64,000 nucleotides of DNA. It comes from Promethearchaeia archaeon. Its GTDB lineage: Archaea > Asgardarchaeota > Lokiarchaeia > Sigyniarchaeales > SOKP01. Under the pieces are notes generated by a model that did no database searches, had not been told where the DNA came from, and saw only the letters and a list, made by a program, of their open reading frames with translations. Location of the stretch: the NCBI GenBank assembly GCA_029856125.1, contig JAHQWJ010000062.1, forward strand, positions 64,001 to 128,000. Direction: 5' to 3'. Position 1 is the first letter of the stretch. The number at the start of each line of letters is the position of its first letter. This document shows, one piece after another, positions 8,113-55,176 of this stretch. Both the position numbers and the translations under genes were made by a program.

Positions 8113-8973
8113 TTAATCAAATCGAAGTGAATAATCTACGAATTCCGTAGGCTTTTGAGTAAGAACGCTCGTACTTATCACGTCGGGCTCTGAAATTAGA
8201 TAGTCAAAAATATTTTCTTGAGTAATGTTCCCAGAAACTTCTATAATAACTTGATTACGTAATTTCTCTTGTTTTAATAAGTTTATGGCGTCCTGTACTT
8301 TATCTGGATTCATGTTATCCAGCATAATTATATCTGCTTTGTTTTTTACGGCAATTAGGACATCGCTTACATTTTCAATCTCAATTTCTATTTTTTTTGT
8401 GAAACTAACTCGAGACTTTACGTCTTTGAGAAGTTTTACGATGTCCCCTTTATAAAATTTTAAATGAGGTGATTTTAAAAGCACCATATCGTCCAAACTA
8501 AAACGATGAGTATCTCCTCCACCCAATTCTACGGCTTTCTTTTCGAACAACCTTAACCCTGGAAGAGTTTTTCGTGTACAAGCTATTTTCACATTTTTTC
8601 CAGAATCCTCAATTATTTTTACAAATTTTCGGGTAGTTGAAGTTATTGCACTCATGTGACTCATAAGATTTAGACCTACTCGCTCACCAAGCAATATATT
8701 TCTGGATTCTCCGTCTATTTTCGCGAAGATATCACCATTATGGATTTGATCTCCATCTTCTTTGTTTCTGATAACTTTAACATTTAAGAGTTGATATAAT
8801 ATACCCAACTCTTCTAAACCAGATAAATATCCATCACTTTTTGCGATAATTGTGGCTGAGGATACAGACTCTTTGGGAATGGCGTTTGAACTAACATCGA
8901 TGAAAGAGTTGTCTTCAATTAAGAACTTTTTTAGTTTTTCTTTGATTAAAATACGATTATAACTCATTTTCAC
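8113..8973 (-). CDS. nadC: Quinolinate phosphoribosyltransferase (nicotinate-nucleotide diphosphorylase)
   Basis: ER..LN, TRKTLPG, HRFSL, DIIMLDN and EVSGNI motifs. Confidence 0.9.
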   Translation of the reverse strand: MKMSYNRILIKEKLKKFLIEDNSFIDVSSNAIPKESVSSATIIAKSDGYLSGLEELGILYQLLNVKVIRNKEDGDQIHNGDIFAKIDGESRNILLGERVGLNLMSHMSAITSTTRKFVKIIEDSGKNVKIACTRKTLPGLRLFEKKAVELGGGDTHRFSLDDMVLLKSPHLKFYKGDIVKLLKDVKSRVSFTKKIEIEIENVSDVLIAVKNKADIIMLDNMNPDKVQDAINLLKQEKLRNQVIIEVSGNITQENIFDYLISEPDVISTSVLTQKPTEFVDYSLRFD

Positions 8974-9023
8974 TAAAGAATTTTGATAGTATTATTATTA
9001 TAGATTAAATACTAATTAAAATT

Positions 9024-9710
9024 ATGCATAGCGTTGAAAAATTGTTTATTCTTAATAATGAAGTAAAACTGGAAGCTGAAGTTTTTCAGATAGAAAATGA
9101 AACACCTAGTTGCGTTGCATTAATGTGCCATCCACATCCTCAATTTCTTTGGGTTTAAATCCCAAGAAAGGGAAAGTATGGCGGGGACATGTATAATAAC
9201 GTTGTATCGGGTGTTTTCAATTCGTTCGTTAAAAAGGATATATCCTGCATACGCTTCAATTTTAGAGGGGCGGGTAATTCGACAGGGGATCATACAAGCG
9301 GTAAGGGCGAATTAAGCGATGTTAAGGCTTGTGTTGACCATTTAACGCAGAGTTTACATTTTGATAGAGTTTTTATATGCGGGTATTCCTACGGTGCAGC
9401 TATAGGGTGCTCTACTATCAATTATTCCGAAAAAATAATTGGATATTGTGCAATTTCTTTTCCTTGGGACTTTATGAGCGTCCAATATAAAGAGTTATCT
9501 CAATCGAAAAGACCAAAATTGTTCATTCAAGGGGATATGGATACAGTAGCCCCTTATGAAAATTTTATGAAACACTTTAATTATTATTCAGAGCCAAAAA
9601 AATTCAAGATTATAGAAGGGGCAGATCATTTTTATCAAAATTTTGAAGAGGTGATTAGTAGAGAAGTATTGAACTTTTATGATTCCATAGCTCAAAATCC
9701 AATTTCATAA
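9024..9710 (+). CDS. Alpha/beta hydrolase, intron-split (exons 9024-9142 and 9176-9710; 217 aa after splicing)
   Basis: ATG 9024 is open to ...MCHPHPQ, then a 33-nt insert with in-frame TAA, then YGGDMYNNVV...RFNFRGAG.S.G...GYSYG...QGDMD...GADHFY in the same frame. The track reports only the 3' part (9189-9710). Confidence 0.85.
9143..9175 (+). other. Putative bulge-helix-bulge (BHB) mRNA intron, 33 nt
   Basis: Central helix TCCT(9137-40)/GGGA(9170-73). Bulges CA^A (9141-43) and AA^G (9174-76). Intron stem TTTCTT-T-GGG/CCCAAGAAA. Splicing yields CAG (Gln) and restores HPHPQYGGDM. Confidence 0.85.
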
Positions 9711-9736
9711 CATCTCTGATTATATGAAGTGAATAG

Positions 9737-9756
9737 ATTGAATTTTCTAATTCAAT
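9737..9756. terminator. 8-bp inverted repeat between convergent genes (possible terminator)
   Basis: ATTGAATT-ttct-AATTCAAT. AT-only, so the evidence is weak. Confidence 0.25.
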
Positions 9757-9786
9757 AATAATATAGAGCGAAAAGATTCGGTTTAT

Positions 9787-10185
9787 TTAAATTGTAGACA
9801 GTTTTTCCAAATCGGGAGTTGCATTTGAAACGGCCCAATCTAATAATTGATCGTAATAGGATTCAATTTCGTATGATTCGGGACTATTAGATAAAACTGC
9901 TAATATAAATTGCGTTTTTTGATCAGGCATAATAATATTTCTACATACAATATAATCTCCAATATATTTAATCTTCATACTCGATAGAAGAGACAAATTC
10001 ATTTCCTCAGAAGCTTTATATGCCGCATCGCTCAATAAGGAGCTCATGGCTGCAACAACCCGTTCATCAACATCCTCTGCTTTTTGGGAAGCTAAAACTA
10101 ATCCTGTTGAAGTAGAGAACAATGACGCTCTAAAATTTCCATTTTCATTTAATTCTTTAAGTACAAGTTCAAGTCGGCTAACCAC
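9787..10185 (-). CDS. Roadblock/LC7 domain protein
   Basis: LE.VLKEL...ASLFSTSTGLVLAS....DERVVAAMSSLL..A pattern. Confidence 0.8.
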   Translation of the reverse strand: MVSRLELVLKELNENGNFRASLFSTSTGLVLASQKAEDVDERVVAAMSSLLSDAAYKASEEMNLSLLSSMKIKYIGDYIVCRNIIMPDQKTQFILAVLSNSPESYEIESYYDQLLDWAVSNATPDLEKLSTI

Positions 10186-10275: not shown

Positions 10276-10800
10276 TTATCTTAAATTCAGATTTATAAGA
10301 AAAGTCGATAGAATATTATCATTATCGATCTTCAGGGTAATAACGCTTGGTCTCGCAATAGGTTTTTCAAAACCTTTTTTAGGAAGTGGGGCTATAGGTT
10401 TAGTTGGGCTCCCCGGATTGATTAATAACGTATTGTAGGGTGTTCCCTTAATAAGTGGTTGATGGGTATGCCCAAAAATAAGAATATGGATATTATTCTC
10501 CTTAATAAAAACTTCCGTATTCTCAGGTTTCTTGTGTACTATTCCGAGGGTGTATTCACCAACTTCAAAGTTTATAAAAGTCTCTAATCCAGGTATTTTA
10601 TCTGACTCTCCTCGTACGCATCGGACTGGAGCTATGTTTTCCAAATCGTTAAGAAAAAACGGTACACAAACATCTCCAGCATGAATTATTTCATCAACAT
10701 CTTCGAAAGTTTCTTTTAATTGATTCAATAATATATAATATAATTTGTTTTTATCATTAGTTGTAAAATGCGTGTCAGAAATGATTCCAAATTTAGCCAT
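10276..10800 (-). CDS. YfcE/Vps29-like metallophosphoesterase
   Basis: IISDTH, IIHAGD, VRG, GHTHQP and NPGSPT motifs. Confidence 0.85.
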   Translation of the reverse strand: MAKFGIISDTHFTTNDKNKLYYILLNQLKETFEDVDEIIHAGDVCVPFFLNDLENIAPVRCVRGESDKIPGLETFINFEVGEYTLGIVHKKPENTEVFIKENNIHILIFGHTHQPLIKGTPYNTLLINPGSPTKPIAPLPKKGFEKPIARPSVITLKIDNDNILSTFLINLNLR

Positions 10801-42635: not shown

Positions 42636-43247
42636 ATGGGAAGAAGGAAACGTAAACAACAATCATATAAAAGAGTTAAGCGAGTTCCAAAGATTTTCAC
42701 GTGCCCAAATAACTAAATGGATACCCCATTTAATATGGATTGCGGTGAAAAATCTGTCAAGGTTAAGAATATTCGGAAAAGCTTAATTGCCACAGTGAAG
42801 TGTGGTCATTGTGGCTTAACAAAGGATGTTTTAATTAATTCTATATCAGAACCGGTTGATGCCTTTGGAGATTTTATCGATATTCATTACGCTGATCAGG
42901 AACTTCAGAGACTAGAAAAACGCATAGAGAAACTTAAAAAGAAAAATGAATGGGGGGAATTAGTTCTAGTTTATTCTATTTTATCGGATATTTGCAAAGC
43001 TAAAGCTGCAGAGGCCTTAGAAGATGAAGATAATGTCAACCTTGATGTAGTTAATAAATGGAAAATTAGAGCGGAAGAATATAAAAGGTTAGGAAAGGAT
43101 GCATTACTTCAACTAGACTCTCTTGAGTTAGAGAAAGGAATTAAAACAGATGACGAGTCTTTGTTTACAGAGCACGACGAGAGTGACATGAAGAGGGAAA
43201 AAAAAATCGAAGATATTTTTGACGATCCAGGCTTTCTTGAATTCTAA
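42636..43247 (+). CDS. elf1: Transcription elongation factor Elf1 with helical/acidic C-terminal extension, intron-split (exons 42636-42710 and 42741-43247; 193 aa after splicing)
   Basis: MGRRKRK...VPKIFTCPN|CGEKSV....A.VKCGHCGL......EPVD.FGDFID is the Elf1 signature. A 30-nt insert with in-frame TAA splits the first CxxC. Confidence 0.88.
42711..42740 (+). other. Putative BHB mRNA intron, 30 nt
   Basis: Central helix CCAA(42705-08)/ATGG(42735-38) with one A-A mismatch. Bulges AT^A (42709-11) and AT^T (42739-41). Intron stem TAAATGG/CCATTTA. Long exon-exon stem AGATTTTCAC-G-TGC/GCG-GTGAAAAATCT. Confidence 0.8.
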
Positions 43248-53703: not shown

Positions 53704-55176
53704 ATGAATGTGAATAAAATAGATGAAAACATCTACGAAATCCCTCAAAAAACTTTAATGGCTCGAGTAGAAGGAAAGATCGCAAAATTTCAAATGAGAG
53801 TACCTGTCCATATTTATGCTAACGATTACATTTTAGAAAAAATTAAAAACGATAGAACTTTGGATCAAATTTGTAATGTAGCTTGTCTCCCCGGTATACA
53901 AAAACATGCTATTGTTCTCTCTGATGCACACCAAGGTTATGGGTTTTGTATTGGGGGTGTAGCAGGAACAGACGCTTATTCTGGAATGATTTCCCCAGGT
54001 GGTGTAGGATACGATATAAACTGTGGTGTGAGAATTCTAAGAACAAATCTTCACCTTAAAGATATTGAAAGTTCAATTCCTAAATTACTAGACACTATTT
54101 TTAAGAATATACCATCCGGATTAGGAAGTAAAGGAAAATTAAGCATCAATTCCTCTCAATTAGATGAGGTTTTAGATAATGGCTTAAATTGGGCATTAGA
54201 TAATGATTATGCTATAAAAGAGGATTTAGAGCATTGCGAAGAAAACGGTTTTTTGAAAAACGCTGATTCAAAATTAGTATCTCAAAAAGCAAAGCAAAGA
54301 GGAATAAAACAACTCGGCTCTTTAGGGAGCGGTAACCATTTTCTCGAAATACAAAAGGTTGATGAGATTTATAACGAGTCAGTGGCAAAGAAATTGGGAA
54401 TCATTAATAAAGATCAAATAGCAATCATGGTTCATACTGGTTCCCGGGCTCTTGGTCATCAAGTGTGCACGGATTCGCTTAGAAATGTCGAGCAAGCAAT
54501 GAGAAAATACAAGATAAAAGTACCAGACCGCGAGTTAGCTTGTGTACCAGCCGATACTCCGGAGGCAATACAATACTTGAAAAACATGGCTTGCGCTGCA
54601 AATTTTGGGTTTACTAATCGCCAGTTAATAACGCATTGGCTAAGAGAATCTTTCCAAAATCATTTTAAAAGGAGTTTAGACGATCTGGATTTTAAATTGA
54701 TTTATGGTGTTTGTCATAATATCTTAAAGATAGAAGAACATGATGTTGATGGGAAAAAAATGAAATTAAACATCCACAGAAAAGGCGCAACTAGAGCCTT
54801 CCCCCCAGAGCATCCAGATATACCCCGTGATTATAAAAGTATAGGTCAACCAGTTTTAATTCCTGGAACTATGGGAACTGCTTCGTACTTATGTGTTGGG
54901 AGACCAAAAGCAATGGATCTCTCTTTTGGTTCGACAGCTCATGGATCTGGGCGTGTGATGTCAAGATCTAAAGCAACGAAACAATATTGGGGCACTAAAA
55001 TAAAGGAAGATCTAAGGAATAAAGGAATTACCGTAAAAGCCGCCTCTCCTAAAATAATTGCGGAAGAAGCTCCTGGAGCATATAAAGACATAGATCAGGT
55101 TGTCCAAGTGAGCCAAGATCTCGGCATTGTAGAAAAAATTGTAAGATTAGTTCCAATTGGCGTTGTAAAAGGATAA
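53704..55176 (+). CDS. rtcB: RNA-splicing ligase RtcB
   Basis: DAHQGYGF.IGGV, GVGYDINCG, GSLGSGNHF.E, HTGSR, HN, HRKGAT, HGSGR and EEAP.AYK motifs. Confidence 0.97.
   Translation: MNVNKIDENIYEIPQKTLMARVEGKIAKFQMRVPVHIYANDYILEKIKNDRTLDQICNVACLPGIQKHAIVLSDAHQGYGFCIGGVAGTDAYSGMISPGGVGYDINCGVRILRTNLHLKDIESSIPKLLDTIFKNIPSGLGSKGKLSINSSQLDEVLDNGLNWALDNDYAIKEDLEHCEENGFLKNADSKLVSQKAKQRGIKQLGSLGSGNHFLEIQKVDEIYNESVAKKLGIINKDQIAIMVHTGSRALGHQVCTDSLRNVEQAMRKYKIKVPDRELACVPADTPEAIQYLKNMACAANFGFTNRQLITHWLRESFQNHFKRSLDDLDFKLIYGVCHNILKIEEHDVDGKKMKLNIHRKGATRAFPPEHPDIPRDYKSIGQPVLIPGTMGTASYLCVGRPKAMDLSFGSTAHGSGRVMSRSKATKQYWGTKIKEDLRNKGITVKAASPKIIAEEAPGAYKDIDQVVQVSQDLGIVEKIVRLVPIGVVKG

What the first reader, a model, noticed from the sequence alone, without database searches (positions are those of the whole stretch)
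9143..9175. 33-nt canonical BHB intron inside the HPHPQ-YGG motif of an alpha/beta hydrolase
Unspliced, the frame reads CHPHPQ-FLWV*IPRKGK-YGGDMYNNVV, whereas the family motif is HPHP.YGG.M.N.VV. The fold is: exon stem (CCACA/TATGG with one mismatch, extended by ATGT/ACAT), bulge AAG, helix UCCU/GGGA, bulge CAA, and a 9-bp intron stem with one bulged U. EndA-rule cuts give CA|G = Gln, giving a 217-aa intact enzyme. The agreement between RNA structure and protein motif is hard to explain by chance.
Basis: seen in the sequence. Interest (0 to 1): 0.9.

Follow-up and report, generated by a model that had tools for sequence, protein, structure and literature searches.

The report
tRNA-type mini-intron in Asgard hydrolase gene
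A 33-base insert that breaks an esterase-like gene of a Loki-type Asgard archaeon has the RNA shape cut by the tRNA-splicing enzyme and is conserved in 25 relatives, so the mRNA is very probably spliced, which papers report for only one other archaeal coding sequence (cbf5).

Summary
Gene 9024..9710 (+) encodes a COG2945-like alpha/beta hydrolase. It is interrupted at 9143-9175 by 33 nt carrying an in-frame TAA. The insert and its flanks form a near-canonical hBHBh' motif in the correct topology. The standard cuts join CA|G and give HPHPQ|YGG and a 217-aa protein.

The main support is comparative:
- 25 distinct orthologues in the same genus carry an insert at the same site, 30 to 33 nt long.
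- Four inserts are not a multiple of three. Every 3n insert has an in-frame stop.
- The hairpin keeps pairing through compensatory changes.
- The exon codons that pair with the intron are frozen as CAT CCT in 25 of 25 intron-bearing genes, against 6 of 13 intronless Asgard orthologues.
- Both exons are under purifying selection.
- Intronless orthologues nested among the intron-bearing ones have exactly the predicted junction.
- The genome encodes EndA alpha and beta subunits and RtcB.

No RNA data covered the junction, so splicing itself is inferred.

In the papers I could search, BHB introns in archaeal mRNAs are reported only for crenarchaeal cbf5 (coding sequence) and a Haloferax 5' UTR. 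This scan has already noted the same hydrolase intron in another genome, and similar mRNA introns in other Asgard genomes.

Verdict: a real feature, a new member of a known kind, interest 0.62.

The parts
9024..9142 (+). Exon 1: ATG to the first two bases (CA) of the split Gln codon. It encodes 39 residues plus two thirds of a codon and ends ...CHPHP(Q).
   Evidence: The frame is open, with an ATG at the same place, in 24 of the 25 intron-bearing orthologues (L084 is cut by its contig end). Median dN/dS is 0.37.
9143..9175 (+). 33-nt BHB intron, phase 2, with an in-frame TAA at 9156-9158.
9176..9710 (+). Exon 2: G of the Gln codon, then YGGDMYNNVV... to the stop (TAA 9708-9710). It holds the GYSYG nucleophile elbow and the Asp and His of the triad.
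   Evidence: Median dN/dS is 0.16.
9137..9140 (+). Central 4-bp helix, exon strand UCCU (last base of His codon CAU plus Pro codon CCU).
   Evidence: It pairs with 9170-9173. CAT CCT is found in 25 of 25 intron-bearing genes against 6 of 13 intronless Asgard orthologues.
9170..9173 (+). Central 4-bp helix, intron strand GGGA.
   Evidence: Invariant in all 25 sequences. All four pairs are kept in 100% of cells.
9141..9143 (+). 5' bulge CAA. The predicted cut is between 9142 and 9143.
   Evidence: Manual parse by the EndA rule (cut after the second bulge base). The bulge is CAA in 24 of 25 and GAA in 1.
9174..9176 (+). 3' bulge AAG. The predicted cut is between 9175 and 9176.
   Evidence: The bulge is AAG, AAA or AUA in relatives. 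The joined codon is CAG or CAA (Gln) in 24 of 25 and GAA in 1.
9144..9169 (+). Intron hairpin (inner helix h'): 9144-9153 with 9161-9169, loop 9154-9160.
   Evidence: 91% of cells are paired and 5 of 9 pairs show changes on both sides. The hairpins of L020 and L022 have different sequences but still fold.
9123..9136 (+). Exon-exon outer helix, 5' strand.
   Evidence: It pairs with 9177-9190. 81.5% of cells are paired and 2 pairs show double changes at synonymous sites.
9177..9190 (+). Exon-exon outer helix, 3' strand.
53704..55176 (+). RtcB RNA ligase gene (490 aa), the expected exon-joining enzyme, in the same window.
   Evidence: PF01139, 567 bits; ORF. The EndA alpha and beta genes lie on other contigs (G000:C135 and C56).

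Best explanation
The 33 nt at 9143-9175 are an archaeal bulge-helix-bulge (tRNA-type) intron inside the coding sequence of a single-copy alpha/beta hydrolase gene of a Promethearchaeota (Loki-type Asgard) archaeon.

Proposed mechanism:
1. In the pre-mRNA, the last exon-1 codons (CAU CCU CA) pair with the 3' end of the intron (GGGA). The intron folds into a hairpin, and the flanking exons pair with each other.
2. This presents two 3-nt bulges 4 bp apart.
3. The (alpha-beta)2 splicing endonuclease EndA cuts after the second base of each bulge.
4. RtcB joins the exons. Only this message can be translated into the 217-aa enzyme with the HPHPQYGG loop.
5. The excised 33-mer is probably circularised.

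What is shown: the structure, its conservation and covariation, the selection on both exons, the exact junction in intronless relatives, and the presence of the enzyme genes.

What is inferred: cleavage and ligation in vivo, the circular by-product, and any regulatory role.
For: 1. Anatomy and cut sites are as the EndA rule requires.
2. The same site is interrupted in 25 distinct orthologues from genomes and metagenomes of one genus, with inserts of 30, 31, 32 or 33 nt.
3. Four distinct inserts are not a multiple of 3, so exon 1 and exon 2 lie in different frames. All 21 inserts that are a multiple of 3 have an in-frame stop. Only exact removal gives one ORF of 208-225 aa.
4. All 25 can adopt hBHBh' within 2 to 5 kcal/mol of the minimum-energy fold.
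5. 88% of cells are paired, against 67% or less when the partners are slid by 1-3 columns. None of 500 shuffles reached the observed pairing or covariation. The inner helix has 5 of 9 pairs with changes on both sides.
6. The exon codons in the central helix are CAT CCT in 25 of 25 intron-bearing genes. The preceding His-Pro codon pair varies freely, and intronless Asgard orthologues use CAT CCT in only 6 of 13.
7. dN/dS is 0.37 for exon 1 and 0.16 for exon 2, at dS of about 0.9 to 1.5.
8. Intronless genes nested among intron-bearing ones (L011, L014, L016, L018) read CCTCA|ATWTGG, exactly the predicted junction.
9. The genome encodes two EndA-family genes: a catalytic alpha with Tyr/His/Lys and a beta without the His. 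RtcB lies in this window. PMC5829648 reports the (alpha-beta)2 type for Asgard.
10. The gene is single-copy in this genome.
Against: - No transcript evidence. The two possible RNA-Seq runs hold only small pieces that do not reach the junction, and no joined form was seen.
- The thermodynamic minimum-energy fold is not the BHB register.
- The outer helix has a fixed C.A mismatch next to its first pair, so the motif is near-canonical rather than strict.
- The relatives are phylogenetically related, so the counts of sequences overstate the number of independent events.
Confidence: 0.88

Rival explanations
1. The gene is a decaying pseudogene, or carries a tolerated insertion. On this reading the 33 nt are junk that happens to fold, and no full-length protein is made.
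For: There is an in-frame TAA. Public gene calls for relatives are truncated to 169 aa. No RNA evidence for splicing was found.
Against: - Exon 1 stays open with its ATG in 24 of 25 lineages in a 31% GC genome.
- Both exons show purifying selection.
- The insert is kept at one site, with compensatory changes and frozen synonymous sites.
- It is the only copy of the gene in the genome.
Confidence: 0.03
2. The gene is split into two separately translated products, a 44-aa N-terminal peptide and a 173-aa protein starting at Met 9189, which associate non-covalently. On this reading the insert is an intergenic spacer.
For: An ATG (9189) follows the insert, and gene callers use it. The purine-rich stretch AAGAAAGGGAAAG lies upstream of it.
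Against: - The YGG codons between the insert and that ATG are conserved as amino acids, with synonymous variation (GGC, GGA, GGG, GGT; TAT, TAC, TTC, TTT). No start codon precedes them.
- That Met is the family's own conserved YGGxM residue and is also present in uninterrupted genes.
- A spacer would not need a BHB fold with covariation.
Confidence: 0.03
3. Translational bypassing (ribosome hopping, as in phage T4 gene 60): the ribosome takes off at the Gln codon and lands before UAU, skipping the insert on the unspliced mRNA.
For: Hopping tolerates gaps that are not a multiple of 3 and uses a hairpin and a nearby stop. The insert has both.
Against: - The take-off codon (CAA) and the landing codon (AAG, AAA or AUA) do not match, whereas matched codons are the rule in gene 60 (established knowledge).
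- The stop is not adjacent to the take-off codon.
- The conserved features are those of a BHB: a 4-bp helix between two 3-nt bulges and an exon-exon helix.
- The genome has the EndA/RtcB machinery.
Confidence: 0.02

Closest known systems
BHB intron in the cbf5 (pseudouridine synthase) pre-mRNA of Crenarchaeota (Watanabe 2002; Yoshinari 2006; Yokobori 2009, PMC2738675)
   Same: It is a short intron inside an archaeal protein-coding sequence with a bulge-helix-bulge motif at the exon-intron boundaries. It is removed by a hetero-oligomeric (alpha-beta)2 EndA. Its distribution among related species is patchy and is read as gain and loss.
   Different: - The host gene is an alpha/beta hydrolase, not cbf5.
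- The phylum is Promethearchaeota (Asgard), not Thermoproteota.
- The organism is a mesophilic sediment archaeon.
- Splicing of cbf5 was shown by RT-PCR and in vitro cleavage. Here it is only inferred.
BHB intron in the 5' UTR of HVO_1309 mRNA of Haloferax volcanii (PMC7714728)
   Same: It is an mRNA substrate of the archaeal splicing endonuclease.
   Different: It lies in the untranslated leader, so the reading frame does not depend on it. The enzyme is a homodimeric alpha'2 EndA. That paper states that cbf5 was the only additional BHB intron reported in an archaeal mRNA.
Archaeal tRNA introns, canonical (37/38) and non-canonical, which are numerous in Asgard tRNA genes (bioRxiv 10.64898/2026.10.13.758758)
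   Same: The motif, the expected enzymes and the size range are the same: hBHBh', EndA plus RtcB, about 30 nt.
   Different: The host here is an mRNA. The exon strand of the central helix is made of His-Pro codons, so coding and RNA structure constrain the same bases. That preprint does not treat protein-coding genes.
Unconventional cytoplasmic splicing of HAC1/XBP1 mRNA in eukaryotes (IRE1 cut, RtcB or Trl1 ligation)
   Same: It is a spliceosome-independent removal of a short mRNA intron that changes the reading frame or the product. In metazoa the exons are joined by RtcB.
   Different: The endonuclease is IRE1, which recognises two stem-loops rather than a BHB, and the event is stress-regulated. 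No regulation is shown here. This comparison rests on established knowledge and was not tested.
COG2945-type alpha/beta hydrolases (PDB 3TRD, 2I3D, 2FUK/XC6422; Pfam Abhydrolase_11, PF20408)
   Same: Exon 2 matches 3TRD at E = 1e-23, starting at chain residue 43, and matches PF20408 and PF12146 above their cut-offs. The HPHPxYGG loop, the GxSxG elbow and the Asp and His are present.
   Different: The gene is interrupted. The substrate is unknown.

Membership tests
Archaeal BHB (EndA-spliced) intron | Two 3-nt bulges on opposite strands separated by a 4-bp helix, each bulge lying 3' of its central-helix strand. | tested here: met
   UCCU 9137-40 pairs with GGGA 9170-73; the bulges are CAA 9141-43 and AAG 9174-76. 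The central helix is paired in 100% of cells in 25 sequences.
Archaeal BHB (EndA-spliced) intron | Flanking helices h (exon-exon) and h' (intron) of at least 2 bp. | tested here: met
   h' has 9 bp with one bulged U. h has one A-U pair, a C.A mismatch and then 3 bp plus extensions, so it is near-canonical.
Archaeal BHB (EndA-spliced) intron | Cutting after the second bulge base on each side gives a functional mature RNA. | tested here: met
   The joined frame gives HPHPQ|YGG and 217 aa. Intronless orthologues have the identical junction. Inserts that are not a multiple of 3 come back into frame only with these cuts.
Archaeal BHB (EndA-spliced) intron | The structure is maintained in evolution (covariation). 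| tested here: met
   7 pairs have changes on both sides, and 0 of 500 shuffles reach the observed pairing or covariation score; synonymous sites in the exon strand are frozen.
Archaeal BHB (EndA-spliced) intron | The host encodes the splicing endonuclease and an RNA ligase. | tested here: met
   Two PF01974 genes at 97.8 and 72.9 bits (alpha with Tyr/His/Lys, beta lacking the His) and RtcB at 567 bits.
Archaeal BHB (EndA-spliced) intron | A spliced RNA or a circular intron is observed, or the RNA is cleaved by EndA in vitro. | not testable with these tools
   No RNA holder of the locus is listed, and the laid contigs do not bridge the junction.
Alpha/beta hydrolase, COG2945 / Abhydrolase_11 type | The sequence matches the family profile above its curated cut-off. 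| tested here: met
   PF20408 at 34.2 bits (cut-off 27) and PF12146 at 38.7 bits (cut-off 27) on exon 2 alone. PDB 3TRD matches at E = 1e-23.
Alpha/beta hydrolase, COG2945 / Abhydrolase_11 type | A Ser-Asp-His triad with a GxSxG elbow, and the HPHPxYGG loop. | tested here: met
   GYSYG, GDMD and GADH are read directly in exon 2. HPHPQ|YGG is formed only after removal of the insert. Assigning these residues to the triad is inference from the order of the motifs.

The most novel reading that the evidence does not exclude
This intron may be one visible member of a genome-wide population of EndA/RtcB-spliced introns in Asgard protein-coding genes. Candidates noted in the same genome are aIF2-gamma, elf1 and cobO, and others were noted in other Asgard genomes. 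On this reading, routine spliceosome-independent mRNA splicing, with intron gain and exact loss, is a normal part of gene expression in the closest prokaryotic relatives of eukaryotes.
Probability: 0.55. Interest if true: 0.85.

Novelty: new member of a known kind. Interest (0 to 1): 0.62.

Why it matters
Papers I could search report endonuclease-spliced introns inside an archaeal coding sequence for a single gene, cbf5 in Crenarchaeota (PMC2738675; PMC7714728). A second, well-conserved family in an unrelated metabolic gene of Asgard archaea would show three things.
- The tRNA-splicing machinery also serves mRNAs in the lineage nearest to eukaryotes.
- Standard gene callers truncate such genes. 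Here the public calls are 169 aa instead of about 213.
- Intron loss at the exact splice junction occurs within a genus.

It also gives a small, easily tested substrate, an 81-nt RNA, for Asgard EndA. In addition, it is a case where coding and RNA-structure constraints act on the same bases.

Tried and rejected
- RNA evidence. The look-up of sequencing runs listed no RNA holder. Two cold-seep 'RNA-Seq' runs of uncertain kind hold small shares. Laying X1-X4 gave contigs that do not bridge 9142/9176 in X1 and X2, and no joints. This says nothing either way.
- Spliced full-length product in the protein database. Every hit above about 70% identity is a truncated call of 169 to 179 aa, and none is full-length. 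No assembled spliced transcript was found.
- Homology-free genome screen for BHB motifs whose removal joins two long open frames. It gave 592 candidates, but the observed/expected ratio was about 1 at every length. The ORF criteria were too loose, so the screen says nothing about how many mRNA introns the genome holds.
- Mobile-element idea. blastn-short of the intron against the whole genome finds only itself, so it is not a repeated sequence family.
- Rfam. There is no match in 8800-9900.
- Selection on outer-helix pairing at synonymous sites. The two variable pairs are complementary in 60% and 68% of intron-bearing sequences, against 21% and 33% of intronless ones. The intronless set is mostly GC-richer bacteria, so I treat this only as a hint.
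- Translated insertion or stop-codon read-through. This is rejected because of the inserts that are not a multiple of 3.

Full report
**What is there**

The window is G000:C63:64001-128000 of a 3.69-Mb MAG at 31% GC. Its relatives in public records are named Promethearchaeota or Lokiarchaeota, that is, Loki-type Asgard archaea.

From ATG 9024 the + strand reads MHSVEK...CHPHPQ, then FLWV*IPRKGK, then YGGDMYNNVV... to a stop at 9708-9710, all in one frame. The part after the insert matches Pfam Abhydrolase_11 and Hydrolase_4 above their cut-offs. It also matches the solved COG2945-type hydrolases 3TRD, 2I3D and 2FUK, starting at chain residue 43 of 3TRD. It carries GYSYG, GDMD and GADH in the order of a Ser-Asp-His triad. 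More than 1,500 homologues exist. The closest ones are called as 169 aa, starting at the Met after the insert, while more distant ones are about 212 aa and uninterrupted.

**The RNA motif**

A real BHB, as in pre-tRNA with an intron at 37/38, has on each strand the order helix, 4-nt central strand, 3-nt bulge, helix. EndA cuts after the second bulge base. This is established knowledge; compare PMC5829648.

The sequence fits exactly:
- Outer helix CCACA 9132-36 with UAUGG 9177-81 (one C.A mismatch), extended by CC/GG and AUGU/ACAU.
- Central helix UCCU 9137-40 with GGGA 9170-73.
- Bulges CAA 9141-43 and AAG 9174-76.
- Intron hairpin 9144-53 with 9161-69.

The cuts remove 9143-9175 and join CA|G. 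This gives HPHPQ|YGG and 217 aa.

RNAfold prefers a register with 2x2 internal loops. The BHB form costs 2.0 kcal/mol more. A motif of comparable looseness occurs at about 2e-4 of all (position, length) pairs, both in the genome and in shuffles. Coincidence with boundaries fixed independently by the protein alignment is therefore improbable, though for one sequence alone it is not overwhelming.

**Comparative evidence**

This is the main support.

A search of 41 related genomes, of GTDB species genomes and of JGI metagenomes gave 160 loci. Twenty-five distinct sequences, all in the window's genus or from unbinned metagenome contigs 71 to 92% identical to it, carry an insert at the same codon. 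The lengths are 33, 32, 31 and 30 nt.

- In four of them (L015, L020, L021, L091) the length is not a multiple of three, so exon 1 and exon 2 are in different frames. All 21 inserts that are a multiple of three contain an in-frame stop.
- With the predicted cuts, every complete gene becomes a single ORF of 208 to 225 aa.
- All 25 can form hBHBh' within 2 to 5 kcal/mol of their minimum-energy fold.

I aligned the sequences to a covariance model of the motif and counted pairs:
- 88% of cells pair, against 39 to 67% when the 3' partners are slid by one to three columns.
- None of 500 column shuffles reach the observed pairing, covariation score or number of double changes.
- The intron hairpin has changes on both sides in 5 of 9 pairs: C-G, U-G and U-A at one pair, U-A and A-U at another, and G-C, A-U and U-A at others.
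- L020 and L022 have hairpins of essentially different sequence.
- This alignment was fitted to the model, which favours the structure. The per-sequence folds do not depend on it.

**Coding and structure constrain the same bases**

The exon strand of the central helix is the end of a His codon plus a Pro codon. These are CAT CCT in 25 of 25 intron-bearing genes. The His-Pro codons immediately before them take five combinations in the same genes. Intronless Asgard orthologues use CAT CCT in only 6 of 13. The synonymous divergence among these genes is about 0.9 to 1.5. The frozen third positions therefore point to selection for pairing with the intron's invariant GGGA. Relatedness of the sequences weakens this as a statistic but not as a pattern.

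**Not a pseudogene**

- The median pairwise dN/dS among intron-bearing genes is 0.16 for exon 2 and 0.37 for the short, more variable exon 1.
- Exon 1 keeps its ATG and stays open in every complete copy.
- The genome has only this one copy.
- The YGG codons between the insert and the next ATG vary synonymously and have no start codon before them. They must therefore be translated as a continuation of exon 1.

**History**

On a maximum-likelihood tree of the in-silico spliced and the intronless proteins, the intron is confined to the window's genus. It is absent from the five sequences of other genera and from all bacterial homologues.

Intronless genes are nested among intron-bearing ones. L011 groups with L008 and L009. 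L016 is sister to L013 and L017, inside a 95% SH-aLRT clade that also holds L014 and L018. Parsimony needs four changes, and well-supported branches force at least two.

The intronless genes read ...CCTCA|ATWTGG, which is the predicted junction base for base. That is what loss through a spliced RNA copy would leave. Repeated gain at one site cannot be excluded.

**Machinery**

The genome has two EndA-family genes. One (200 aa) has the Tyr, His and Lys of the active site. The other (201 aa) lacks the His. This matches the (alpha-beta)2 type that PMC5829648 reports for Asgard archaea. RtcB (490 aa) lies in this window at 53704-55176.

**What is missing**

No RNA run that covers the junction could be found, and the one laying of reads showed no joined form. 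Splicing, the circular intron and any regulatory role are therefore inferences.

**Rivals**

- A decaying pseudogene is contradicted by the selection on both exons and by the conservation of the structure.
- A two-polypeptide split gene is contradicted by the translated YGG codons, which have no start codon before them.
- Ribosome hopping is contradicted by the unmatched take-off and landing codons, and by the fact that the conserved features are those of a BHB.

Together I give these rivals under 10%.

**Known or new**

In the library I could search, PMC7714728 (2020) states that, besides its own 5'-UTR case in Haloferax, only the crenarchaeal cbf5 mRNA intron had been reported (PMC2738675). 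A 2026 preprint on Asgard tRNA introns does not treat protein genes. Two further searches for Asgard or Lokiarchaeota mRNA introns found nothing. The library is incomplete, so this is not proof of absence.

Within this scan the thing is not new:
- The same hydrolase intron was followed up in another genome (e1-3024574).
- Similar mRNA introns were reported in several other Asgard genomes, one of them with RNA support according to its agent (e1-5583151). I did not check those claims.
- First-reader notes list further candidates in this genome: aIF2-gamma, cobO, and elf1 at 42636-43247 of this window. I looked at the elf1 site only briefly.

**Verdict**

It is a new member (new gene, new phylum) of a known kind of element. 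Confidence in the mechanism is 0.88 and interest is 0.62.

Noticed in passing
window 42636-42760 (+): The elf1-like ORF reads ...KIFTCPN, then 30 nt (42711-42740) containing an in-frame TAA, then CGEKSVKV..., which splits the CPxCG zinc knuckle. My strict BHB scan did not flag it, so its central helix is relaxed, as another first-reader note says (e1-5574279).
   Followed up: partly
window 8975-9023 (+), upstream of ATG 9024: The A/T-rich stretch just upstream of the start codon (it translates as IIID*xLIKIM) is conserved almost base for base across species whose synonymous sites are near saturation. It is probably the BRE/TATA promoter with a very short leader.
   Followed up: no
window 53704-55176 (+): The RtcB RNA ligase gene (490 aa, PF01139 at 567 bits) lies 44 kb downstream of the intron-bearing gene on the same contig.
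   Followed up: partly
window 9787-10185 (-) and 10276-10800 (-): A stand-alone Roadblock/LC7 gene and a Vps29-like metallophosphoesterase follow the hydrolase. This neighbourhood is kept in same-genus relatives: the Roadblock C-terminus ...PDLEKLSSI* appears next to the hydrolase in L003, L006, L009 and L021.
   Followed up: no
L085:565-600 (metagenome contig Ga0307376_10002690): In one orthologue exon 1 ends in GA instead of CA, so the spliced codon is GAA (Glu, HPHPE|YGG) and the 5' bulge is GAA. The BHB is otherwise intact.
   Followed up: partly
public protein calls P0002-P0020 and others: Dozens of database entries for this gene are 169-aa truncations that start at the Met after the intron. 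Automatic annotation systematically mis-calls intron-bearing Asgard genes.
   Followed up: partly
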